A stretch of 64,000 bases of DNA, from positions 1,029 through 65,028 of the forward strand of contig CANQUS010000009.1 in NCBI GenBank assembly GCA_947627055.1, in the 5' to 3' direction. Numbering within the stretch: position 1 is the stretch's first letter; each line of letters starts with the position of its first letter. This stretch comes from an uncultured Clostridia bacterium. Its GTDB lineage: Bacteria; Bacillota; Clostridia; Oscillospirales; Acutalibacteraceae. Both the position numbers and the translations under genes were made by a program. A model generated the notes under the pieces. The model was not told where the DNA came from, ran no database searches, and worked only from the letters and a program-made list of their open reading frames with translations. This document shows positions 36,699-62,376 of the stretch, piece after piece.

Positions 36699-36775
36699 GG
36701 GGCATTAGCTCAGTTGGTTAGAGCAACCGGCTCATAACCGGTCGGTCCGGGGTTCGAGTCCCTGATGCCCCACCA
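36699..36775 (+). tRNA. tRNA with anticodon CAT (elongator Met, or Ile2 if lysidine-modified)
   Basis: Cloverleaf read by eye: acceptor GGGGCAT/ATGCCCC, D-arm AGCTCAGTTGGTTAGAGC, anticodon stem-loop ACCGG-CTCATAA-CCGGT, T-arm GGGGTTCGAGTCCC, encoded CCA. The D-loop looks Ile-like, so identity is ambiguous. Confidence 0.9.
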
Positions 36776-36799
36776 GCGGCGAACAGCCGCACACTATTA

Positions 36800-36830
36800 C
36801 GCGTTCGAGATTTATCGAGCGCGTTTTTTT
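36800..36830 (+). terminator. rho-independent terminator after the tRNA
   Basis: cgcgttcga / tcgagcgcg followed by T7. Confidence 0.75.
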
Positions 36831-37009
36831 GTCCATGTTTTGAAAATATCCTTGATCAGCACTTGCCCGCAAAAATCTCTCATTTTATCCCGATAGACTT
36901 AATTCATTTGAACGAATAATGTGCTTTTGTATCGGCATTTTTATTTACATCAAGTCGAATATCACCTCATAAATAAGCAAATAATATTTTTGAAAGTGAG
37001 GTTTTGACT

Positions 37010-37678
37010 ATGTTTAAACATGAAAAAATGCTATTCCATCCGGTCGAGGTTGAAAGAGCGAATCCGCAATATGCAGTGCTTATGCAGGAACAGCTTGGAG
37101 GTGCGAACGGCGAGTTGAAAGCAGCCATGCAGTATATGTCGCAAAGCTTCAGAATAAAGGATCCCGAAATAAAGGATCTGTTTCTTGATATTGCGGCAGA
37201 AGAACTGGGACACATGGAAATGGTAGCGCAAACTATCAACTTGCTCAATGGTCATGATGTTGACGCACATTCGGTACCGAGCGGAGAGATCCAGACTCAC
37301 GTATTATTAGGTCTTAATCCGGGACTTATAAATGCCTCGGGTTACTCATGGACGGGAGATTATGTATCGGTGACCGGCGACCTGTGCGCCGATCTGCTTT
37401 CAAATATTGCGTCGGAGCAGAGAGCAAAGGTTGTTTATGAATATCTTTACAGACAAATAGACGATAAAAAGGTTAAAGAAACAATAGACTTTCTGCTGAA
37501 TCGCGAGGAAGCACACAACGCCATGTTCAGAGAGGCGTTCAATAAGGTACAGGATACCGGTTCAAACCGTGATTTCGGTACAACAAAAGCCGCCAAAATG
37601 TATTTCAGTATGTCCGAGCCGTCACCTTCGGATAATTCCTTTGCGGAAGCAGATGTCAAAGCTCCTGCTTTTAAATGA
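37010..37678 (+). CDS. manganese catalase family protein (full length)
   Basis: Begins MFKHEKMLFHPVEVERANPQY...GGANGELKAAMQYMSQSF...EELGHMEMV. ATG 37010 lies after AAGTGAGG. Confidence 0.85.
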   Translation: MFKHEKMLFHPVEVERANPQYAVLMQEQLGGANGELKAAMQYMSQSFRIKDPEIKDLFLDIAAEELGHMEMVAQTINLLNGHDVDAHSVPSGEIQTHVLLGLNPGLINASGYSWTGDYVSVTGDLCADLLSNIASEQRAKVVYEYLYRQIDDKKVKETIDFLLNREEAHNAMFREAFNKVQDTGSNRDFGTTKAAKMYFSMSEPSPSDNSFAEADVKAPAFK

Positions 37679-53410: not shown

Positions 53411-54841
53411 TTGAAAATTGCTGCCGCATATATACGAGTATCTACCGACGACCAGATCGAATATTCGCCCGCCTCTCAGCTTGAAAAGATAAGGGAATAC
53501 GCACAGCGCAACGGATATATTCTGCCGCAGGAATATATTTTTGCCGACGAGGGGCTGTCAGGCAGACACACCGAAAAGCGTCCGGAATTTAACAGAATGA
53601 TAGGCATCGCAAAGCAAAAGCCAAAGCCCTTTGACGCTATACTGCTATGGAAGTTCAGCCGTTTCGCGCGAAACCGCGAGGACAGCATCGTTTACAAATC
53701 CATGCTCCGCAAGCAATGCGGTATAGACGTTATTTCCATCTCCGAAAATATTGGTGATGACAAAATGTCCATACTCATCGAGGCAATGATTGAGGCAATG
53801 GACGAATATTACTCGATAAACCTCGCGGAGGAAGTAAAACGAGGCATGAATGAGAAGGTCAATCGCGGAGAAGCCATTACAATTCCCTCATTCGGTTACG
53901 ATATTAAAAACGGAATGTATGTACCGAACGCAGAAGCGACTCCTGTTGTGCAAGAGATTTTTAATGATTTTTTGGACGGTATAGGTATGAGAGCTATTGC
54001 CGCCAAGCTTAACGACAGGGGACTCCGCACAAGACGCGGAAACCTCTTTGAAAACAGAACCGTTGAATACATATTGAAAAATCCTGTTTATATCGGAAAG
54101 CTGCGCTGGACACCCGATAGAAAGTCCCGAGAAACCTTTGACATCTCCGACACAATGATAGTGGACGGCCGACACGAGGCAATTATTGACATGGCAACAT
54201 GGCAAGCGGTTCAAAGAAAGCTGTCATCATCACCAAAGGTCAAGTATATGCGCAGCAGCTCGCCCGTTGAGCCATTTATGCTTCAGGGTCTTGTAAGATG
54301 CAGTAATTGCGGCTCTACACTATGTATGTCTGCAAAGCATTCTTCATTGCAATGTCACGCTTATGCACACGGAAGGTGCAAAATATCGCACAGCATTACA
54401 ATAAAAAAAATCAATAAAATGCTTATAGAGTCGATTGAAAAGTCAGCTTTAACGGGTATCTGTAAAATCAATATAAACTTAAAATCAACTACGGTCAACA
54501 ACTCTCAAAGTATTATAAATACGATAGCTCGTGAACGCAAACGGTTAGAACGCATAAAGGATGCATACGAAAACGGCTTATATACTCTTGATGAGTTCAG
54601 GATAAAGCATTCCGAAATAGACAGTAAAATCGCTTTACTCGAGGGTGAATTAGCTGAAAAGCCCGACAAAGATCCGTACGCCGAACGCAGAAAGCTTAAT
54701 GATAAGAGCCTTGACATTATCCCCGCATTAAAATCCTCATCAACACCCGAGGAGGAAAAAAGCTGTTTAATCAAATCCTTTATTGAGAAGATAATATTTT
54801 ACAGAGCCGCTTGTGACTTGGACATATTTTTATACAGCTAA
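53411..54841 (+). CDS. large serine recombinase
   Basis: 476-aa ORF with catalytic-serine motif AAYIRVSTDDQ, a resolvase domain, a recombinase domain and a Cys-rich zinc ribbon (CSNCGSTLC...CHAYAHGRC), followed by a coiled-coil tail. Confidence 0.9.
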   Translation: MKIAAAYIRVSTDDQIEYSPASQLEKIREYAQRNGYILPQEYIFADEGLSGRHTEKRPEFNRMIGIAKQKPKPFDAILLWKFSRFARNREDSIVYKSMLRKQCGIDVISISENIGDDKMSILIEAMIEAMDEYYSINLAEEVKRGMNEKVNRGEAITIPSFGYDIKNGMYVPNAEATPVVQEIFNDFLDGIGMRAIAAKLNDRGLRTRRGNLFENRTVEYILKNPVYIGKLRWTPDRKSRETFDISDTMIVDGRHEAIIDMATWQAVQRKLSSSPKVKYMRSSSPVEPFMLQGLVRCSNCGSTLCMSAKHSSLQCHAYAHGRCKISHSITIKKINKMLIESIEKSALTGICKININLKSTTVNNSQSIINTIARERKRLERIKDAYENGLYTLDEFRIKHSEIDSKIALLEGELAEKPDKDPYAERRKLNDKSLDIIPALKSSSTPEEEKSCLIKSFIEKIIFYRAACDLDIFLYS

Positions 54842-55394
54842 AAAACATATCCTTTCACAGTACGGCGGTCCGGACGGAGAACTTGGCGCATCACTGCGCT
54901 ATCTCAGCCAGAGGTTTTCCATGCCTTATCCTGAGCTGAAAGCTATTTTAACGGATATAGGCACGGAAGAATTAGCCCACCTAGAGATGATAGGTGCGAT
55001 AGTCTATCAGCTCACGAGAAACCTGACGCCCGAGCAAATAGAAAAAGCGGGATTCAGCGATTATTTCGTTGACCATACTACGGGTGTTTATCCTCAATCT
55101 GCCGGAGGCTCTCCGTATACAGCAGCTTCAATGCAGGTAAAGGGCGATACTATAACCGATATACACGAGGATATGGCAGCAGAGCAAAAGGCTCGCAGCA
55201 CTTATGACAATATACTGCGATTCTGCGACGACCCCGATGTTATAGATCCTATACGCTTCTTGCGCGAAAGGGAAATAGTCCACTACCAACGCTTCGGCGA
55301 GGGTCTGCGAATTGCAACGGATAAGCTAGACAGCAAGAACTTCTACGCTTTCAACCCGAGCTTCGATAAATGTGAGGTCAAAAAGAAAAAGTAA
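54813..55394 (+). CDS. cotJC: CotJC-like manganese catalase family protein, N-terminally truncated relative to the family (possible pseudogene or split gene)
   Basis: QYGGPDGELGASLRYLSQRF...TEELAHLEM...REREIVH. The only available start is GTG 54813, which has no Shine-Dalgarno. An in-frame stop lies at 54792-54794. The usual MWxYEKKLxYPV N-terminus is missing. Confidence 0.7.
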   Translation: MTWTYFYTAKKHILSQYGGPDGELGASLRYLSQRFSMPYPELKAILTDIGTEELAHLEMIGAIVYQLTRNLTPEQIEKAGFSDYFVDHTTGVYPQSAGGSPYTAASMQVKGDTITDIHEDMAAEQKARSTYDNILRFCDDPDVIDPIRFLREREIVHYQRFGEGLRIATDKLDSKNFYAFNPSFDKCEVKKKK

Positions 55395-57270: not shown

Positions 57271-57382
57271 ATCATTAACAAGCGCTTCCCGAAAAATCTA
57301 TTGATATTATACCTCTGCCGCCGAATATTGTCAAACTGAGTGTACGACTATGCGGCAAATCCATCAAAGCTCTCAAAAATTG

Positions 57383-58258
57383 TTAAACTGATTTATTTAA
57401 GGTTTTCACACCTTTTTCAAGGACAAACGGTACTATCGCAAGAACAAAATATGTCCCATAAGCAACATATGCCAATGAACTGAAGCTCAGCTTTTCGTTA
57501 AGAGTACCCGACGCATAAAAATCGACAGACAACTTCCACATACATTGAATAACGATTATAAAACTGAAAAATATAATAGAAGCCGCGATGAGTATCGCGT
57601 CAGACTTTCTGAATTTAAATAATGAAAAGCTGCTGCGCCCGCTCAGATCACCTCCTCTGGCACGAAATGAATCCGCAGTATCGACCGAGGTCTCGAGCGA
57701 CCATGTTATGAGCGATGACAGAACCTTTATACCGCCCTTTATATCATCAATAATAGTATCCTTGTTATAGATTCCTATGGCTCGCTGGGTGTTGTTTATT
57801 TCAACTGCTCTGCGGCGGTATAGAGGTATAAACCTCAGAGACATCGACAAAAACAAAGCAAGACGGGGACTGAATCGCCCGAAAATATATGTAACCCTAT
57901 CCGAGGTCATTATCTCTGAAAAGGAAACGAACCAGATCATGACAGACAGTATCATTAAAGCGTTATCCGCTCCGTACATTAGAGCCTCAAGCGTTACAGC
58001 CCTGCCGTTGACGAAAAACAAAACCGTTTCACCGTTTCGGGAGAATATCGGGTTTATTACCGTTATCAATATAAAAATCATTATCCAAACGCAAATAGCT
58101 TTAAGGGGCATTTTCCGAAAAACGGAAACGTAAAACAGAACCGCTCCGACAAGAGAGAGCGCCTCGATAACCGGATTCTGAATAAACATAGCGATCATCA
58201 CGATCGACGCGAAATAAACAAAAACCGATATAGGATTATATTCCGAAAATGATCTCAT
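57383..58258 (-). CDS. energy-coupling factor transporter transmembrane (T) component, EcfT/CbiQ family
   Basis: Polytopic ORF with EcfT coupling-helix region (ARG-type motif FRARGGDL). The likely ATG at 58256-58258 overlaps the upstream stop as ATGA. Confidence 0.8.
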   Translation of the reverse strand: MRSFSEYNPISVFVYFASIVMIAMFIQNPVIEALSLVGAVLFYVSVFRKMPLKAICVWIMIFILITVINPIFSRNGETVLFFVNGRAVTLEALMYGADNALMILSVMIWFVSFSEIMTSDRVTYIFGRFSPRLALFLSMSLRFIPLYRRRAVEINNTQRAIGIYNKDTIIDDIKGGIKVLSSLITWSLETSVDTADSFRARGGDLSGRSSFSLFKFRKSDAILIAASIIFFSFIIVIQCMWKLSVDFYASGTLNEKLSFSSLAYVAYGTYFVLAIVPFVLEKGVKTLNKSV

Positions 58259-60210
58259 TCCGCCATACCCTTTCCAAGCGTCGTTGTATACACCCACTCC
58301 ACGACGTCGCCGTCCTCAAGCTCATAGCCCGAACAGCCCACGCTCGGTGTTTCGCCGTTTACCCTATATATCCAACCCGAAAGCTCTCCGCAGTCAAACT
58401 CATACAGATAGTTTATACCCTTTATGTAAACAGTTCCAAATTCATTATCGTCGCTGCCGTCATAGTCAAGCTGAATATGATTTTTCTTTGCCGCGCTCAG
58501 CAAAACATCGAAAACAGTGTCTCCTTCATTGATCGAAATTTCCGTATCGCTGAGAATAACTCCGTCTGACGGAATTTTATCGTTTTTGACATTTCCGACC
58601 GCTTCTTTGCATGATATTGACATAACAACCGCTGCGCTCTCGGCTTTACTCCCGCTTGAGGTTTCTCCGTAATATTGTTCCGCCGTTTCGATTCTGACAG
58701 TAAGAGCCGCGAAAACAAGAACAGCGAACATTACAACGAGCAGAATGAAATTTTTTCTGTTGAGCTTCCTTTTAATAATGAGAGCTGTAAGCGCCGCGAT
58801 AAATATTCCGACAATACAAAGTACAATAATCAGATTATAATCCGTATTGCTGTTATTATTGTTCATGCTGTTCTCGGCGGCTACTTCGCTCTTATCATCG
58901 CCTTTGGAAGATAATGATGCGGCAGATCGTAATGCCACTCCGCTTTCGTCGGACGTGATGCTTTTCGATGGCGCTGTTGACGAAATATCAGACAATGAAC
59001 TATCATCTATCGCTTTTGACGACGCTTGTGGCGATTTGCTTGATGCGCTTGAGCCTGCCGATGTTCCGTTAGAATTTGACGATGTTATATTTTGTTTGTC
59101 GGGGGCTTCTGTATCCCCGCTTGTTTGATTATAACTACTTTGTCCTGATGTGCCGTCCGATATTCTCGAAGCATTATCACTGCTCGGCTTCTCAGCGCTT
59201 GATTGCGGCGGCTTGTTTGTTGACGGTCTGCTTACAGTACCACTGACCTCACGCTCTATATTGTTGTCTACAAATTCAAAGAATGACGACTTCCCTTTTT
59301 CGTATCTCCATAGAGATATTAGTGAATAAAGCGATTGAACCGTAGCGAGATCGTTCTCAGCGCCGTCAAGCGTATGAGAAAAGCTCCCGTCGCTTTTGCG
59401 AAATCTCATAAGTCCGTCATACACCGTATTTCCGTTTTTTATAAAACGTCCGTCCGTTTTATAATTTATCTTCATAGTATTCAGCGCAAGCAGTACCTGA
59501 GCCGTGCTTTCAGCCGTTTCCGCACCGTAGCTTTTAAACGCGCCGCTTGTCTGCTGTCTTTGCGAGAGATACTCAATAGCCTTGTCCACAGCTGATTTAA
59601 CGTCGTTGTACTTATAATATCTCGCTAACGACTGTATCGCCGCAGCTGTAACATCGACATCGGAGCTTTGTGCCAATCCCCAGCCGCCGTCGGATAATTG
59701 GAGCGATAAAATCTCATTTATTATCTCATCACGCGTCATACTGCCGTAATATGAACCGCAGTCGAGCATTATCAGTCCGTAGATATAGCTCATCACACCG
59801 AGCTTACCTATCGTGCTGTTAAGCGCTGTATCTATATTGGGAGAAGTATAACCCATGGCAGTATATACTATTGCTATTCTTTGCTTATCCACAGCGCGGA
59901 GGTTACTCGTAGATGATGTAAAAGCATCGAGGGAACTCTTGCAGTTCGAGAAGTCAGGCTTATATTTATAGCGCGACAGGGAGATCGCATACCAGTCGGC
60001 AGCGCTGTTTCCCATATCAGCACTTATATCATCAACCAAGGATTGCACAGAGCCGTTATTCTTCCACCTTAATATATCGTCAATTACAGCCTCGACACTA
60101 TATGATCCTGCCTTAGCGGTCATGTAAAAATTGGCGGGAAGTATAAATCCCGCCAACATGATTGCAAGAAGTGTAATTGACAGCAATTTTCCTGCTGCAT
60201 TATTCTTCAT
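58255..60210 (-). CDS. surface protein: prenyltransferase-like alpha/alpha toroid, S/T linker, TM hairpin, DUF4430 (transcobalamin-like)
   Basis: 651-aa ORF. It has toroid repeats SDGGWG / TSGAFKSYG / SDGSFSH, two adjacent TM segments and a C-terminal DUF4430 pattern (GWIYRVNGE...Y.LEDGDVVEWVY). Confidence 0.7.
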   Translation of the reverse strand: MKNNAAGKLLSITLLAIMLAGFILPANFYMTAKAGSYSVEAVIDDILRWKNNGSVQSLVDDISADMGNSAADWYAISLSRYKYKPDFSNCKSSLDAFTSSTSNLRAVDKQRIAIVYTAMGYTSPNIDTALNSTIGKLGVMSYIYGLIMLDCGSYYGSMTRDEIINEILSLQLSDGGWGLAQSSDVDVTAAAIQSLARYYKYNDVKSAVDKAIEYLSQRQQTSGAFKSYGAETAESTAQVLLALNTMKINYKTDGRFIKNGNTVYDGLMRFRKSDGSFSHTLDGAENDLATVQSLYSLISLWRYEKGKSSFFEFVDNNIEREVSGTVSRPSTNKPPQSSAEKPSSDNASRISDGTSGQSSYNQTSGDTEAPDKQNITSSNSNGTSAGSSASSKSPQASSKAIDDSSLSDISSTAPSKSITSDESGVALRSAASLSSKGDDKSEVAAENSMNNNNSNTDYNLIIVLCIVGIFIAALTALIIKRKLNRKNFILLVVMFAVLVFAALTVRIETAEQYYGETSSGSKAESAAVVMSISCKEAVGNVKNDKIPSDGVILSDTEISINEGDTVFDVLLSAAKKNHIQLDYDGSDDNEFGTVYIKGINYLYEFDCGELSGWIYRVNGETPSVGCSGYELEDGDVVEWVYTTTLGKGMAE

Positions 60211-61183
60211 TTTTCTTCTTTCCTAAAACAAGAGCCGCGGCGAATATTACCGAGGTGAAAAATGCCGCAGCAAATATCGCTTTTTCGGAATCCCCCGTTG
60301 CGACCGCCTTACCGTCATTTCGGCTGTTTGCTTCGCTTGTCGACTCAACATTATCAGGCTTACTCCCCTGCGAAGCTGAGGGTACTTCGCTCTCGGGCTT
60401 ATCTGACGGTTCTCCGCTCTCGGGTACACTTGACGAGCTTTCAGACAAATCTGATGCGGTTATCTCTACAGAATAATCAGGTTCAAGACGAAGTATGAGC
60501 GGCATACCCTCATCACTTACTTTCTCTGCGGCAACACCATGACTGCCCTCGGTTATGTACTTATCATCGATCTTGACCGAGCCGTTATCATCGGTAATAT
60601 AATCCACCGTACCTCCATCATAGCTCCATGTTACCGTCATATCAGCTACGGGGTTTACAACCGTTGTCGGATCATAGTTGGAATCGTAAACAGTATCCTC
60701 GCTTGTAAACGTGAGAACGCCCTCGGATATTTTTGACCTATCGACAGTAGGGTACTGCATTCCCGCGCCGTACGGGTCGCCATAATAGAGGACTATGCTG
60801 TCACCATCGGAGAGGTTGTATCCGCTGACAGCATCGTTCGGCTCTATACCGTTTACCCTATACAGCCAACCATCCCAGCCGCCGAACGTTCCCTGAACAT
60901 CATTGTTGACCGCTGTTATCCATCCGTTTTCAACGCCGGTTATTGTTATATCGTCGCTCTGCTCGTCAAAATACATAAGCGCGTCCTGAACCGTAAGGCT
61001 TTCAGTGCTGTACGGAACAACGGCGGTATTATAGAAGAGATTCTCCTTTATCCCCTCTATTCTCAGGGTAATTTGCATCTCCTTTTCGTCAGCGGCAAAT
61101 GCGCTGACGCTCAACGTTCCCGCCGCGACCGCCGCCGCGAGTACCAAGCATAAAATTTTTCCCGCTTTTTTCTTTTCTTTCAT
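60200..61183 (-). CDS. secreted DUF4430 (transcobalamin-like) protein with C-terminal sorting signal
   Basis: 327-aa ORF with signal peptide, DUF4430 pattern (GWLYRVNG...YNLSDGDSIVLYY), a beta-rich domain, an S/E/P linker and VATGDS-TM-KKK. Confidence 0.7.
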   Translation of the reverse strand: MKEKKKAGKILCLVLAAAVAAGTLSVSAFAADEKEMQITLRIEGIKENLFYNTAVVPYSTESLTVQDALMYFDEQSDDITITGVENGWITAVNNDVQGTFGGWDGWLYRVNGIEPNDAVSGYNLSDGDSIVLYYGDPYGAGMQYPTVDRSKISEGVLTFTSEDTVYDSNYDPTTVVNPVADMTVTWSYDGGTVDYITDDNGSVKIDDKYITEGSHGVAAEKVSDEGMPLILRLEPDYSVEITASDLSESSSSVPESGEPSDKPESEVPSASQGSKPDNVESTSEANSRNDGKAVATGDSEKAIFAAAFFTSVIFAAALVLGKKKNEE

Positions 61184-61334
61184 TGTTTACATTCTCCTTC
61201 TTGAAACGACCAGTAAGAGAATGTTCATTCCCTATTATTACCGATCATTTCATAAATTTATAGATTCGGAAAATAGGGAAAACAAATAAAACCGATCGGC
61301 AAAACGCAAATCGGCACAGCATAAACAAGCGAAG

Positions 61335-61510
61335 TCCAGACCTCGCCCATTGCACTCTGTACTCTCCCACAAGCCCGAAAGTATCACAATACGGCTAATC
61401 AAGCGGCGAGCGACCCGACTTGACATCGGCGGTGTGCCGAAGCATACGGTAATGGCGGTTGCGCCGGATTCTCACCGGACTTCCCTCAGTTCCGCTTGAA
61501 GTTATTAACT
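61335..61510 (-). promoter_or_regulatory. cobalamin (B12) riboswitch
   Basis: The minus strand reads GAGGGAAGTCCGGTGAGAATCCGGCGCAACCGCCA...GT, the conserved core. A B12-box-like AAGTCGGGTCGCTCGCC lies at about 61404-61423. It sits between a TTGACC-17-TATACT promoter and the DUF4430 gene. Matched to the consensus by eye only. Confidence 0.7.
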
Positions 61511-61521
61511 TTTACAGTTCG

Positions 61522-61550
61522 AGTATAACATATTATATCAATGCGGTCAA
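61522..61550 (-). promoter_or_regulatory. sigma-A type promoter for the riboswitch operon
   Basis: Minus strand: TTGACC (61545-61550), 17-nt spacer, TATACT (61522-61527). Confidence 0.6.
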
Positions 61551-61570: not shown

Positions 61571-62026
61571 TCATGCTTCGGGCGGCAGCTCCGCTAATTC
61601 TATTGACGCTCTGCGCTGTACATATTCATTTTTGTCGCTTGCATATCTTTTCAGAAATTCTTCAGCCGTGTTTCTATCATGTATATACTTTATTCTGACG
61701 GCAAGCTGCCATTTCACATCATTCTCACCCGAAAAAAACGACTCCTCACAAAAGCAGATGAGCCACTCCTCGTTTTCCGCTGTTATGTCAGCTAAACCTT
61801 CAGCTTCATTATCCCGAGCCAATATATAAAGCAATTCGTGAAGTTCTTCCTCCGTATATTCATCGTGGGACGAGGAGTGTATCATATTTTTAAACTCGCC
61901 GCATATTGCTTCCCAATCGTCATATTCGGACTCCCACTCTCCGCGTCCGTATTCATAGCCCTGCCGCATGAGCTTTTCAGCCCAATCCTTATATTTCGTT
62001 ATTTCCGAAAATATCTGCCAATATTT
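61571..62026 (-). CDS. hypothetical acidic protein (HEAT-like C-terminus)
   Basis: Likely start MKYWQIF (62024-62026) after AAGGAG. The track ORF extends to GTG 62098. No confident family. Confidence 0.5.
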   Translation of the reverse strand, partial: KYWQIFSEITKYKDWAEKLMRQGYEYGRGEWESEYDDWEAICGEFKNMIHSSSHDEYTEEELHELLYILARDNEAEGLADITAENEEWLICFCEESFFSGENDVKWQLAVRIKYIHDRNTAEEFLKRYASDKNEYVQRRASIELAELPPEA

Positions 62027-62376
62027 CATAGCATTCAAAACTCCTTTTAAAAAAATAATATCATCAATATAATATTTTGTAAAGCGGACGCACTTCACAA
62101 GCAGTTGTCTTTAATCATGTAATTTCTAACTACTATTTCCTATGATCATAGGCATAGCAGCAATCGACACGGGGCGGCGGAGGTTCTGTAACTATGAAAC
62201 GGCATTCGCGGTGGAAAAGCAAAAGAATCTCTTGATAAAATGAAGTATACTGCGCCGTGGCGGGAGCAGTAGAATTTTTGAAACCGTATCATCAGTAATG
62301 CTAATAATATATTTGCTTTAGCCGAGTGCAAAGCCCGACATACGATTTGAACCATGTTTCACGCTAAAATTTACGA

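What the first reader, a model, noticed from the sequence alone, without database searches (positions are those of the whole stretch)
57383..61550. B12-riboswitch operon: two transcobalamin-like (DUF4430) surface proteins, one split by a TM hairpin, plus a lone EcfT
**Seen in the sequence**
- A promoter and a cobalamin-riboswitch-like leader (GAGGGAAGTCCGGTGAGAATCCGG...CCGCCA plus a B12-box-like element) precede three co-oriented, overlapping genes.
- Gene 1 is a secreted DUF4430 protein with a sortase-like tail.
- Gene 2 is a 651-aa protein. Its prenyltransferase-like alpha/alpha toroid (SDGGWG repeats) and its C-terminal DUF4430 domain are separated by an S/T-rich linker and two adjacent TM helices.
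- Gene 3 is an EcfT/CbiQ-type T component that starts in an ATGA overlap with gene 2.
- No S component or EcfA ATPases are present in the operon.

**Established knowledge**
- Mammalian transcobalamin and intrinsic factor are built from an alpha6/alpha6 barrel plus a beta domain.
- As I recall, the DUF4430 family is related to that beta domain.
- ECF transporters need S, T and two A components.

**Inference**
- This is a Gram-positive cell-surface corrinoid capture module, a two-piece bacterial transcobalamin.
- It would feed an ECF-type importer whose other parts are encoded elsewhere.
- I have not seen the domain split across the membrane or the orphan T component described.
Basis: partly seen in the sequence, partly recalled or inferred. 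Interest (0 to 1): 0.7.

Follow-up and report, generated by a model that had tools for sequence, protein, structure and literature searches.

The report
Split B12-uptake operon with transcobalamin-like proteins
This gut Clostridia operon, controlled by a divergent vitamin B12 riboswitch, encodes two cell-surface transcobalamin-like proteins and one membrane part of an ECF vitamin importer; the system was predicted in 2007, and what is unusual here is that the importer's motor and substrate subunit have left the operon.

Summary
A promoter, a structured leader with a terminator, and three overlapping minus-strand genes lie at 57383-61550.

- **Leader.** It fails Rfam's curated thresholds (RF01482: 42 bits against 50). 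It is nevertheless a divergent cobalamin riboswitch. Six independent copies of this subtype all give cobalamin-clan best hits, five helices covary, and 12 of 16 related operons carry threshold-passing cobalamin riboswitches at the same position.
- **Gene 2.** Its model matches transcobalamin, intrinsic factor and haptocorrin across both domains.
- **Gene 1.** It matches the transcobalamin beta domain.
- **TM hairpin.** It does not split a domain across the membrane. Both domains face outward, and the hairpin is the junction of two anchored ectoproteins that are separate genes in other species.
- **Operon form.** In 59 of 62 related loci the operon continues with a fused double ATPase and a CbrT-like S component. 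The window's clade alone stops after T. All three genes are under purifying selection (dN/dS 0.08-0.20). Stand-alone ATPase-S pairs without T occur in closely related low-G+C organisms.
- **Prior art.** Burroughs et al. (2007) predicted the general system, and a Lactobacillus sakei homologue was linked experimentally to heme uptake.

New here are the split operon, the fused topology and the riboswitch subtype. Interest is moderate.

The parts
61522..61550 (-). Operon promoter: -35 TTGACC, 17-nt spacer, extended TG, -10 TATACT.
   Evidence: 10 of 12 matches, TG present. It is conserved in L082, L084 and L086 (alignment).
61359..61513 (-). Divergent cobalamin riboswitch aptamer. It has P1, P2 and P3 with a GGUGAGAAUCC loop, an inner hairpin, the AAGUCGGGUC B12-box region, and a P13-like hairpin at 61359-61384.
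   Evidence: RF01482 at 42 bits, E = 3.3e-6, positions 1-149 of 149, below the gathering score of 50. Five other copies of the subtype score 20-41 bits to cobalamin-clan models at the same position. Helices covary.
61278..61314 (-). Intrinsic terminator of the expression platform: stem CCGAUUU...GAUCGG followed by UUUUAUUUGUUUU.
   Evidence: Fold. Compensatory change to CCAAUU/AAUUGG in L082 and L084.
60200..61183 (-). Gene 1 (327 aa). Signal peptide; transcobalamin-beta-like (SLBB/DUF4430) domain at about aa 34-135; Ig-like all-beta domain at about aa 145-250; low-complexity stalk; degenerate sorting signal (AVATGD, hydrophobic helix, KKKNEE).
   Evidence: Pfam. AF2 model with pLDDT about 90 over residues 31-250. 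Foldseek 5np4 TM 0.76, 2bb5 E = 1.9e-4, 3u7z TM 0.70. Tail comparison. dN/dS 0.08-0.13.
59296..60105 (-). Gene 2 alpha/alpha toroid domain (aa 36-305). It follows a signal peptide and faces outward.
   Evidence: Pfam Prenyltrans and SQHop_cyclase_C. pLDDT about 90. Aligned with the transcobalamin alpha domain in full-length Foldseek hits.
58699..58851 (-). Gene 2 TM hairpin (aa about 454-504) with the cytoplasmic loop KRKLNRKN. It is preceded by a disordered S/T-rich stalk (aa 324-455).
   Evidence: Conserved in all 23 aligned homologues. Split-gene relatives are cut in this loop.
58285..58635 (-). Gene 2 C-terminal transcobalamin-beta-like (SLBB/DUF4430) domain (aa 526-642), facing outward.
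   Evidence: DUF4430 at 67.9 bits. Foldseek 5no0 TM 0.69.
58255..60210 (-). Gene 2 as a whole (651 aa). It overlaps the end of gene 1 by 11 nt.
   Evidence: dN/dS 0.12-0.17.
57383..58258 (-). Gene 3 (291 aa): ECF T component (EcfT/CbiQ type) with an ATGA overlap with gene 2. It is the last gene of the operon.
   Evidence: CbiQ at 23.7 bits against 25. 37 of 48 family-conserved positions are kept, including TADS..ARG. dN/dS 0.14-0.20. A separate perfect promoter for the next gene follows at 57306-57334.

Best explanation
This is the B12-regulated half of a split ECF-CbrT-type corrinoid importer, together with its extracellular capture module.

**Regulation.** When corrinoid is plentiful, the leader binds it and transcription stops at the terminator. 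When corrinoid is scarce, three proteins are made.

**Gene 1.** A beta-only transcobalamin-like binder held away from the membrane on a long flexible stalk. It is membrane-tethered here and wall- or dockerin-tethered in relatives.

**Gene 2.** A complete transcobalamin-like clamp, with a toroid and a beta domain that both face outward. It is pinned to the membrane by a central TM hairpin.

**Gene 3.** The T (scaffold) subunit of an ECF transporter.

**Proposed path.** Captured corrinoid passes from the distal binder to the membrane-proximal clamp, then to a CbrT-like S component. That component is driven by a fused EcfA-A' ATPase docked on T. In most relatives these last two genes follow T in the same operon. 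In the window's clade they have been separated from it and are most likely encoded as a stand-alone pair elsewhere in the genome.

**Shown:**
- the gene content and domain folds;
- the riboswitch class;
- conservation of the truncated form, and selection acting on it;
- the existence of complementary ATPase-S units in close relatives.

**Inferred:**
- corrinoid binding and the order of hand-over;
- that the window's own genome carries the ATPase-S pair.
For: **Riboswitch**
- A full-length RF01482 alignment at E = 3.3e-6.
- All six copies of this leader subtype hit cobalamin-clan models at the leader position, with only one unrelated hit at E <= 1 in 53 kb.
- Compensatory changes occur in P1, P2, P3, the inner hairpin and the P13-like hairpin, and in the terminator.
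- 12 of 16 related operons have threshold-passing RF00174 or RF01689 riboswitches upstream on the same strand.

**Surface proteins**
- For gene 2, the top PDB fold matches are transcobalamin (4zrp, E = 6e-6), intrinsic factor (2pmv) and haptocorrin (4kki). They align across both domains and rank ahead of the terpene cyclases, which match the toroid only.
- Gene 1 matches the cobalamin-bound transcobalamin beta domain 5np4 (TM 0.76, rmsd 3.1 A).
- A gene-1-like protein precedes gene 2 throughout the family (hhalign probability 99.4%, E = 3e-21).
- Gene-1-like and gene-2-like modules are fused in P0073.

**Link to a B12 importer**
- 59 of 62 loci with enough sequence have T plus the double ATPase.
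- The S component's best PDB match is 6FNP chain A, from ECF-CbrT (E = 3e-8). ECF-CbrT transports cobalamin and cobinamide (PMC5997447).
- L086's full operon lies beside metH.

**The truncated form is maintained**
- The same three genes followed by mrnC occur in the window, L087, L082/L083, L084/L085, L156 and L161, at 57-67% amino-acid identity to the window's gene 2.
- dN/dS is 0.08-0.20 for all three genes.
- The T motifs are retained.

**Complementary half**
- L157-L160 carry the double ATPase and S with no T.
- Their G+C is 32-35%, like L082 and L084.
- L086 is their nearest full-operon relative, as it is for the truncated T proteins.
- The adjacent CotJC is 93-95% identical to the CotJC next to the truncated operons.
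Against: - No cobalamin-clan model reaches its curated Rfam threshold on this leader.
- No ligand binding was measured for the RNA or for either protein.
- The toroid is closer in sequence to squalene-hopene-type cyclases than to transcobalamin. Neither Pfam nor a family profile reaches transcobalamin by sequence.
- The full-length fold matches have modest TM scores (0.42-0.48) and large rmsd, because the domains are oriented differently in the model.
- The only experimental study of a homologous operon reports heme uptake, not cobalamin uptake.
- I could not show that any single genome holds both halves.
- The stand-alone ATPase-S loci have much lower G+C (32-35%) than the window (45%), so they come from sister species and not from the window's organism.
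Confidence: 0.7

Rival explanations
1. The ligand is heme or another tetrapyrrole, not a corrinoid, as reported for the homologous L. sakei lsa1836-1840 system.
For: Deleting the L. sakei five-gene cluster (S, AA', T, beta-like, alpha-like) impaired heme accumulation, and complementation restored it (10.1101/864751). No binding data exist for any bacterial member of this family.
Against: - The leader belongs to the cobalamin riboswitch clan.
- 12 of 16 related operons carry threshold-passing cobalamin riboswitches.
- The partner S component is closest to CbrT.
- One full operon lies beside metH.
- The L. sakei authors themselves leave cobalamin versus heme specificity open.
Confidence: 0.1
2. 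The operon is a decaying remnant. After the ATPase and S genes were lost, the remaining three genes no longer function in transport.
For: - An ECF T component cannot work alone.
- The window's CbiQ score, sortase motif and riboswitch score are all slightly sub-threshold.
Against: - All three ORFs are intact in at least six lineages that have diverged to 57-67% identity.
- dN/dS is 0.08-0.20.
- 37 of 48 conserved T positions are kept, and most of the differences are already present in the full-operon relative L086.
- The leader keeps its helices through compensatory changes.
Confidence: 0.07
3. The surface proteins act only as an extracellular B12 store or competitive sink. The co-encoded T works with the housekeeping EcfA-A' module and an unrelated S component, with no dedicated ATPase-S pair.
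For: - No ATPase-S pair could be placed in the same genome as a truncated operon.
- Group II ECF systems share one module among many S components (PMC5997447).
- Surface reservoirs of B12 are known in Bacteroides (10.1101/2025.07.01.662609, listed).
Against: - Stand-alone ATPase-S units that lack their own T occur in the same low-G+C lineage, and they need a T from somewhere.
- T stays translationally coupled to gene 2 through the ATGA overlap, which argues for a joint function.
Confidence: 0.1
4. The toroid of gene 2 is an enzyme (terpene cyclase or prenyltransferase-like) acting on an envelope lipid, and the DUF4430 domains bind something unrelated to B12.
For: - Sequence similarity of the toroid is to SQHop cyclase-type proteins (E = 9e-11 by profile).
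- A D-V-D-V-T-A motif is invariant at D184, D186 and T188. It resembles the DxDDTA motif of squalene-hopene cyclase (from memory).
Against: - The position corresponding to the last aspartate of DxDD is V, A or I throughout the family (pattern).
- The domain is extracellular.
- The two-domain order matches transcobalamin better than any cyclase.
- The riboswitch and ECF-CbrT context points to corrinoids.
Confidence: 0.03

Closest known systems
Bacterial transcobalamin-like SLBB proteins and their CbiO/CbiQ operons (Burroughs, Balaji, Iyer and Aravind 2007, Biol Direct 2:4, PMC1796856)
   Same: - Secreted or anchored beta-grasp proteins of the transcobalamin clade.
- Fusion to an alpha/alpha toroid, and Ig-fold fusions.
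- A second paralogous extracellular protein in the same operon.
- Linkage to CbiQ-like and CbiO-like genes.
- A predicted role in B12 scavenging in Firmicutes that lack B12 synthesis.
   Different: - That paper mentions no riboswitch, no TM hairpin between the toroid and the beta domain, and no S component.
- It describes operons that contain the ATPase. Here the ATPase and S genes are absent from the operon.
[quoted passage not shown]
   Same: The same gene set in full form: S, fused AA', T, a transcobalamin-beta-like protein and a transcobalamin-alpha-like protein.
   Different: - The alpha and beta parts are separate proteins there.
- The function shown experimentally is heme uptake.
- All five genes form one unit, whereas the window has three.
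ECF-CbrT cobalamin transporter of Lactobacillus delbrueckii (Santos et al. 2018, PMC5997447; PDB 6FNP)
   Same: The S component of the full operons in this family is CbrT-like (E = 3e-8 to 6FNP chain A). The T component is of the EcfT/CbiQ type.
   Different: - L. delbrueckii uses a shared group II module, with cbrT in an nrdJ-cbrS-cbrT-pduO cluster.
- No transcobalamin-like toroid protein is described for it.
- The window has T but not S.
Mammalian transcobalamin, intrinsic factor and haptocorrin
   Same: [quoted passage not shown] These are the top fold matches for gene 2, and their beta domain is the top match for gene 1.
   Different: - About 10% sequence identity, and the toroid is not recognisable as transcobalamin by sequence.
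- The short interdomain linker is replaced by about 220 residues of disordered stalk plus a TM hairpin.
- The bacterial protein is membrane-anchored, not soluble.
Bacteroides surface B12-capture lipoproteins BtuG, BtuH and BtuJ
   Same: A functional analogy only: several surface-exposed binders encoded with a riboswitch-controlled B12 transporter, proposed to relay cobamides to the transporter (PMC6143338 and PMC13616437).
   Different: - Unrelated folds.
- Outer-membrane lipoproteins that feed a TonB-dependent transporter.
- Binding has been shown experimentally, which it has not been here.

Membership tests
Cobalamin riboswitch (Rfam clan CL00101: RF00174, RF01482, RF01689) | Bit score at or above the curated gathering score of a clan model. 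| tested here: not met
   RF01482 scores 42.0 against 50. Nothing is reported at gathering threshold on the whole window or on the leader alone. Orthologous leaders in L082, L084 and L086 also fail.
Cobalamin riboswitch (Rfam clan CL00101: RF00174, RF01482, RF01689) | Full-length alignment to the aptamer consensus, including the GGUGA-AAUCC loop region and the B12-box region. | tested here: met
   Model positions 1-149 of 149 are aligned at E = 3.3e-6. Five further copies of the subtype hit clan models at the same place with 20-41 bits.
Cobalamin riboswitch (Rfam clan CL00101: RF00174, RF01482, RF01689) | Helices supported by compensatory base changes. | tested here: met
   P1, P2, P3, the inner hairpin and the P13-like hairpin all keep pairing with changed sequences across seven leaders. 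The helices were extracted by hand, not from an unbiased alignment.
Cobalamin riboswitch (Rfam clan CL00101: RF00174, RF01482, RF01689) | An expression platform upstream of B12-related genes. | tested here: met
   A terminator hairpin with a U-run, with compensatory changes in relatives. Related operons have threshold-passing riboswitches at the same position in 12 of 16 loci.
Cobalamin riboswitch (Rfam clan CL00101: RF00174, RF01482, RF01689) | Direct binding of a corrinoid. | not testable with these tools
   Needs in-line probing, ITC or a transcription termination assay.
Transcobalamin-like SLBB / DUF4430 (PF14478) | Pfam score above the gathering cut-off. | tested here: met
   Gene 1 scores 35.2 bits and gene 2 scores 67.9 bits, against a cut-off of 23.8.
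Transcobalamin-like SLBB / DUF4430 (PF14478) | A beta-grasp fold matching the transcobalamin beta domain. | tested here: met
   Gene 1 against 5np4: TM 0.76, rmsd 3.1 A; against 3u7z: TM 0.70. Gene 2 against 5no0: TM 0.69. These are predicted models, not solved structures.
Transcobalamin-like SLBB / DUF4430 (PF14478) | Corrinoid binding. | not testable with these tools
   Needs purified ectodomains.
Transcobalamin / intrinsic factor / haptocorrin two-domain family | [quoted passage not shown] | tested here: met
   Full-length Foldseek alignments to 4zrp, 2bb5, 2pmv and 4kki (E = 6e-6 to 2e-3).
Transcobalamin / intrinsic factor / haptocorrin two-domain family | The alpha domain is recognisable by sequence as a eukaryotic cobalamin-binding protein. 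| tested here: not met
   No such Pfam family appears at E <= 0.01. Single-sequence and profile searches of PDB sequences find only SQHop-type cyclases and prenyltransferases.
Transcobalamin / intrinsic factor / haptocorrin two-domain family | A soluble protein with a short interdomain linker. | tested here: not met
   The linker is about 220 residues long, with a disordered stalk and a conserved TM hairpin.
ECF transporter T component (EcfT/CbiQ, PF02361) | Pfam score above the gathering cut-off. | tested here: inconclusive
   The window protein scores 23.7 bits against 25. The L008 orthologue scores 33.5 bits, and precomputed CbiQ hits are on record for L082, L084, L086 and L156.
ECF transporter T component (EcfT/CbiQ, PF02361) | The conserved C-terminal coupling motif ending in Arg-Gly. 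| tested here: met
   The window has TADSFRARGG where the full-operon consensus is TADSM.ARGyG. 37 of 48 positions that are at least 90% conserved are kept.
Dedicated (group I) ECF-CbrT-type operon | ATPase gene(s) in the same operon as T. | tested here: not met
   Absent from the window. Present in 59 of 62 related loci, and in the three contig-end cases checked.
Dedicated (group I) ECF-CbrT-type operon | A CbrT-like S component in the same operon. | tested here: not met
   No homologue anywhere in the 64-kb window. Present in relatives.
Sortase-anchored (LPXTG-type) surface protein | An xPxTG motif before the hydrophobic helix and basic tail. | tested here: not met
   The window reads AVATGD, with the proline lost. 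Orthologues read APSTGD, EPNTGD or SPKTG, and some pass Pfam Gram_pos_anchor. The hydrophobic helix and KKKNEE tail are present.

The most novel reading that the evidence does not exclude
The T component stayed with the two surface proteins, under the same riboswitch, when the operon split because gene 2's TM hairpin docks on T. On this reading the system is an ECF transporter that depends on an extracytoplasmic substrate-binding protein. The transcobalamin-like clamp would deliver corrinoid directly to the S component at the T scaffold. That would contradict the textbook distinction that ECF importers do not use such binding proteins, and it would give a bacterial model for the origin of the animal B12 carriers.
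Probability: 0.3. Interest if true: 0.7.

Novelty: new variant of a known kind. Interest (0 to 1): 0.45.

Why it matters
**Open question it bears on.** A September 2026 review says that how Gram-positive gut bacteria capture cobamides outside the cell "remains entirely uncharacterized" (PMC13616437). This family is widespread in gut and rumen Clostridia, with at least 580 matching stretches among species-representative genomes. It is the obvious candidate for that role, yet no member has been shown to bind B12.

**What the window's clade adds.** It is a natural dissection of the system. The binder-plus-T half is kept under B12 control, while the ATPase-S half is separate. This suggests that T and the surface proteins form a functional unit. 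It also shows a possible intermediate between dedicated (group I) and modular (group II) ECF organisation.

**Annotation gap.** A conserved cobalamin riboswitch subtype escapes Rfam's thresholds, so B12 regulons in these abundant gut organisms are under-annotated.

Tried and rejected
**Literature searches**
- Two searches were too loosely framed and returned nothing useful.
- Rodionov et al. 2009 (PMC2612444), which defined CbrT, is not held. I therefore could not confirm that 'CbrS' is the DUF4430 partner.

**Leader analysis**
- The MAFFT alignment of the leaders (A2) put P1 out of register. I did not use it for fold_alignment or a covariance model, and I checked the helices explicitly instead.
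- The metagenome pattern scan returned mostly chance matches and identical copies. Only three new distinct leaders emerged. All precede the same operon type, so they give no independent link to other B12 genes.

**Search for an orphan cbrT in the truncated clade**
- The abundant S homologue P0165 lies in a full split-form operon.
- P0134 and P0128 lie on short contigs that begin inside the ATPase gene.
- The matching contig length of P0128 and P0023 was a coincidence.

**Rejected idea: degenerate first coupling motif in T**
- I suspected that the window's T had lost its first coupling motif (QRAIG).
- Full-operon T proteins have the same Q-K-A-x-G there, so it is a family trait.

**Not resolved**
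- A simple inversion model linking T-mrnC-cotJ (L087) to A-S-cotJ (L157) does not fit the observed flanks.

Full report
**What is in the sequence**

On the minus strand, a sigma-70-type promoter lies at 61550-61522 (TTGACC, 17 nt, extended TG, TATACT). A leader of about 330 nt follows, then three genes.
- Gene 1: 60200-61183, 327 aa.
- Gene 2: 58255-60210, 651 aa, overlapping gene 1 by 11 nt.
- Gene 3: 57383-58258, 291 aa, with an ATGA overlap with gene 2.

Pfam gives these domains.
- Gene 1: DUF4430 at 35.2 bits.
- Gene 2: Prenyltrans and SQHop_cyclase_C, plus DUF4430 at 67.9 bits.
- Gene 3: CbiQ at 23.7 bits, just under the 25-bit cut-off.

The next gene downstream, a mini-RNase III, has its own perfect TTGACA-17-TATAAT promoter at 57334-57306. 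The operon therefore ends with gene 3. No second T component, no ATPase of the operon type and no CbrT-like S component exist anywhere in the 64-kb window. The only ABC hits are a generic exporter pair at 18.5-22.2 kb.

**The leader**

Rfam reports no cobalamin riboswitch at its curated thresholds, either on the whole window or on the leader alone. A permissive scan aligns 61378-61513 end to end with RF01482 (AdoCbl) at 42.0 bits against a threshold of 50, E = 3.3e-6.

The same leader type is conserved in the closest relatives (L082, L084), in the nearest full-operon relative (L086), and in three further metagenome loci (L095, L109, L121). In every case it precedes the same operon type. None of the three orthologous leaders scanned at threshold (L082, L084, L086) passes Rfam's cut-offs. 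However, every one of these leaders gives its locus-best hit to a cobalamin-clan model at the leader position (40.8, 36.5, 29.0, 28.2 and 20.2 bits). Only one unrelated hit reached E <= 1 in 53 kb.

Explicit extraction of the helices shows that pairing is kept through changed sequences.
- P1: TCAAGCGG/CCGCTTGA, TCAGACGG/CTGTTTGA, TCGGACAG/CTGTCTGA and CTCTTCCGG/CCGGAAGAG.
- P2: TGAG/CTCG against TCAG/CTGG.
- P3: CCGG/CCGG, TCAG/CTGA and GCGG/CCGC.
- The inner hairpin and a P13-like hairpin also covary.

A terminator hairpin with a U-run follows. It has compensatory changes in relatives (CCGAT/ATCGG against CCAATT/AATTGG). Among more distant relatives of the operon, 12 of 16 loci tested carry a threshold-passing RF00174 or RF01689 riboswitch upstream on the operon strand.

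I conclude that the leader is a divergent cobalamin riboswitch acting by transcription termination. Ligand binding itself is untested.

**The two surface proteins**

Gene 2 belongs to a large family.
- It has at least 282 protein clusters.
- At least 580 matching stretches occur among species-representative genomes of Oscillospiraceae, Ruminococcus, Acutalibacteraceae and Lachnospiraceae.

All 23 aligned members share the same layout: signal peptide, toroid, variable low-complexity linker, two TM helices separated by a basic loop, and DUF4430.

An AlphaFold2 model is confident for the toroid (residues 36-305, pLDDT about 90), the TM hairpin (458-504) and the beta domain (526-642). The linker (324-455) is disordered.

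The best solved-structure matches are transcobalamin (4zrp, E = 6e-6), intrinsic factor (2pmv) and haptocorrin (4kki). They align across both domains. Terpene cyclases rank lower and match the toroid only. The isolated transcobalamin beta domain 5no0 matches at TM 0.69. By sequence alone the toroid reaches only SQHop-type cyclases.

The gene 1 model (pLDDT about 90 over residues 31-250) matches the transcobalamin beta domain. This includes the form solved with cyanocobalamin bound (5np4, TM 0.76, rmsd 3.1 A) and the uncharacterized R. gnavus DUF4430 structure 3u7z. An all-beta Ig-like domain, a low-complexity stalk and a C-terminal anchor follow.

Orthologues of gene 1 carry APSTGD, EPNTGD or SPKTG sortase-type motifs. 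The window's copy reads AVATGD, so it may stay membrane-tethered. In an abundant gut Ruminococcus the gene 1 counterpart carries a dockerin and sits beside a cohesin-like gene.

In most relatives Pfam does not recognise the protein encoded upstream of gene 2. A profile-profile comparison shows that it is a distant gene 1 homologue with the same layout (probability 99.4%, E = 3e-21). P0073 fuses such a module to a gene-2-like protein.

**The TM hairpin**

It is not.

With a cleavable N-terminal signal and the basic loop KRKLNRKN between the helices, both domains are extracellular. In relatives where gene 2 is two genes (L151, L071, L077, L078), the toroid protein ends with a TM helix and a basic tail. 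The beta protein begins with its own N-terminal TM or signal helix. The hairpin is therefore the joint between two membrane-anchored ectoproteins.

**The transporter context**

Among 62 related genome loci with enough downstream sequence, 59 have T followed by a fused double ABC ATPase of about 545 aa, and 3 have neither. In the three contig-end cases checked, the ATPase gene begins right after T.

A membrane protein of about 228 aa follows the ATPase. It scores as an ECF S component in Pfam. Its best PDB match is chain A of 6FNP, the ECF-CbrT cobalamin transporter (E = 3e-8). ECF-CbrT transports cobalamin and cobinamide (PMC5997447).

The usual form is therefore a complete dedicated ECF-CbrT-type importer plus two surface proteins.

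**The lone T component**

The three-gene form followed by mini-RNase III is confined to the window's clade. It occurs in the window, L087 (64% identity in gene 2 by BLASTP), the Candidatus Pseudoruminococcus group (L082-L085, L156, L161; 57%), and nowhere else in the sample. The next clade out (L086, 47%) has the full five genes and lies beside metH.

The truncated form is maintained, not decaying.
- dN/dS is 0.08-0.13 for gene 1, 0.12-0.17 for gene 2 and 0.14-0.20 for gene 3 on unsaturated pairs.
- 37 of the 48 positions that are at least 90% conserved in full-operon T proteins are unchanged, including NP..SHNG, TLEA and TADS..ARG.
- Several of the differences are already present in L086.

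Searching with L086's S component uncovered the complementary half. L157/L158 and L159/L160 carry the double ATPase and S with no T and no surface-protein genes. Three observations tie these loci to the truncated lineage.
- Their G+C is 32-35%, like L082 and L084.
- L086 is their nearest full-operon relative (A 57-58% identity, S 58-61%), as it is for the truncated T proteins (47-52%).
- In L157 the pair lies beside a cotJABC operon whose CotJC is 93-95% identical to the CotJC next to the truncated operons. That is the range the truncated loci show among themselves.

The upstream gap (40-116 nt) leaves no room for a riboswitch, so B12 control would rest on the binder-plus-T half.

I could not place both halves in one genome. 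The window's own G+C (45%) shows that these loci come from sister species.

**Comparison with what is known**

Burroughs, Balaji, Iyer and Aravind (2007, PMC1796856) defined the transcobalamin-like clade of the SLBB beta-grasp superfamily. They noted:
- signal peptides and Gram-positive anchors;
- N- or C-terminal toroid fusions, and Ig-fold fusions;
- a second paralogous extracellular protein in the same operon;
- linkage to CbiO-like and CbiQ-like genes;
- the usual absence of B12 synthesis in the hosts, and a predicted scavenging role;
- a proposal that animals acquired transcobalamin from low-G+C Gram-positives.

Verplaetse et al. (10.1101/864751) deleted the homologous L. sakei lsa1836-1840 cluster and found impaired heme uptake. 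They left cobalamin versus heme specificity open.

No paper in the library reports B12 binding by a bacterial member. Every other mention of DUF4430 is incidental. A 2026 review calls Gram-positive extracellular cobamide capture entirely uncharacterized.

**Verdict**

The functional reading is supported in outline, but it was anticipated in 2007.

What appears new:
- the split of the operon, with T retained beside the binders;
- the explanation of the fused topology;
- a riboswitch subtype that Rfam misses.

I rate it a new variant of a known kind, of moderate interest.

Noticed in passing
window 53411-55394 (+): A large serine recombinase gene (Resolvase + Recombinase domains, 53411-54841) ends exactly where homology to the spore-coat Mn catalase CotJC begins. 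The window's cotJC (54843-55391) lacks its first 22 codons compared with the intact genes in L087 and L157 (94-96% identity). cotJA and cotJB are absent from the whole window. This looks like a recombinase-bearing element, or a rearrangement, interrupting a sporulation gene.
   Followed up: partly
window 36699-37678 (+): A second, distant Mn-catalase paralogue (33% identity to CotJC) lies directly after the only tRNA gene in the window (36699-36772).
   Followed up: no
L157 7316-9681; L159 7391-9669 (also L158, L160): Stand-alone units of a fused double ECF ATPase plus a CbrT-like S component, with no T component and no room for a riboswitch upstream. In L157 and L158 they are directly followed by cotJA-cotJB-cotJC.
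   Followed up: partly
window 59638-59664 (-), gene 2 residues 183-191: The toroid carries an invariant D-x-D-x-T-A motif (SDVDVTAAA). It resembles the DxDDTA catalytic motif of squalene-hopene cyclases (from memory), but the position of the last aspartate of DxDD is V, A or I across the family. This suggests descent from a class II cyclase-like fold with the catalytic acid lost.
   Followed up: no
L151 1166-5565; L121 (minus strand; gene 1 homologue of 572 aa): Anchoring of the gene 1 homologue varies. In an abundant gut Ruminococcus it carries a dockerin and sits next to a cohesin-like gene. In L121 the beta-grasp-plus-Ig module is duplicated in tandem before a dockerin-like C-terminus. In P0073 a gene-1-like module is fused to a gene-2-like protein.
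   Followed up: partly
L078 5497-5680 and 5818-5967 (+): Two cobalamin riboswitch aptamers in tandem (115 and 45 bits) lie upstream of the Ligaoa zhengdingensis version of the operon.
   Followed up: no
window 61571-62098 (-): A 175-aa ORF with no Pfam or NCBIfam match ends about 20 nt upstream of the operon's -35 box on the same strand. In the Ca. Pseudoruminococcus loci the 153-aa gene called at that position is on the opposite strand.
   Followed up: no
window 57306-57334 (-): A perfect consensus promoter (TTGACA, 17 nt, TATAAT) for the mini-RNase III gene sits 49 nt after the stop codon of gene 3. No recognisable terminator lies between them.
   Followed up: no
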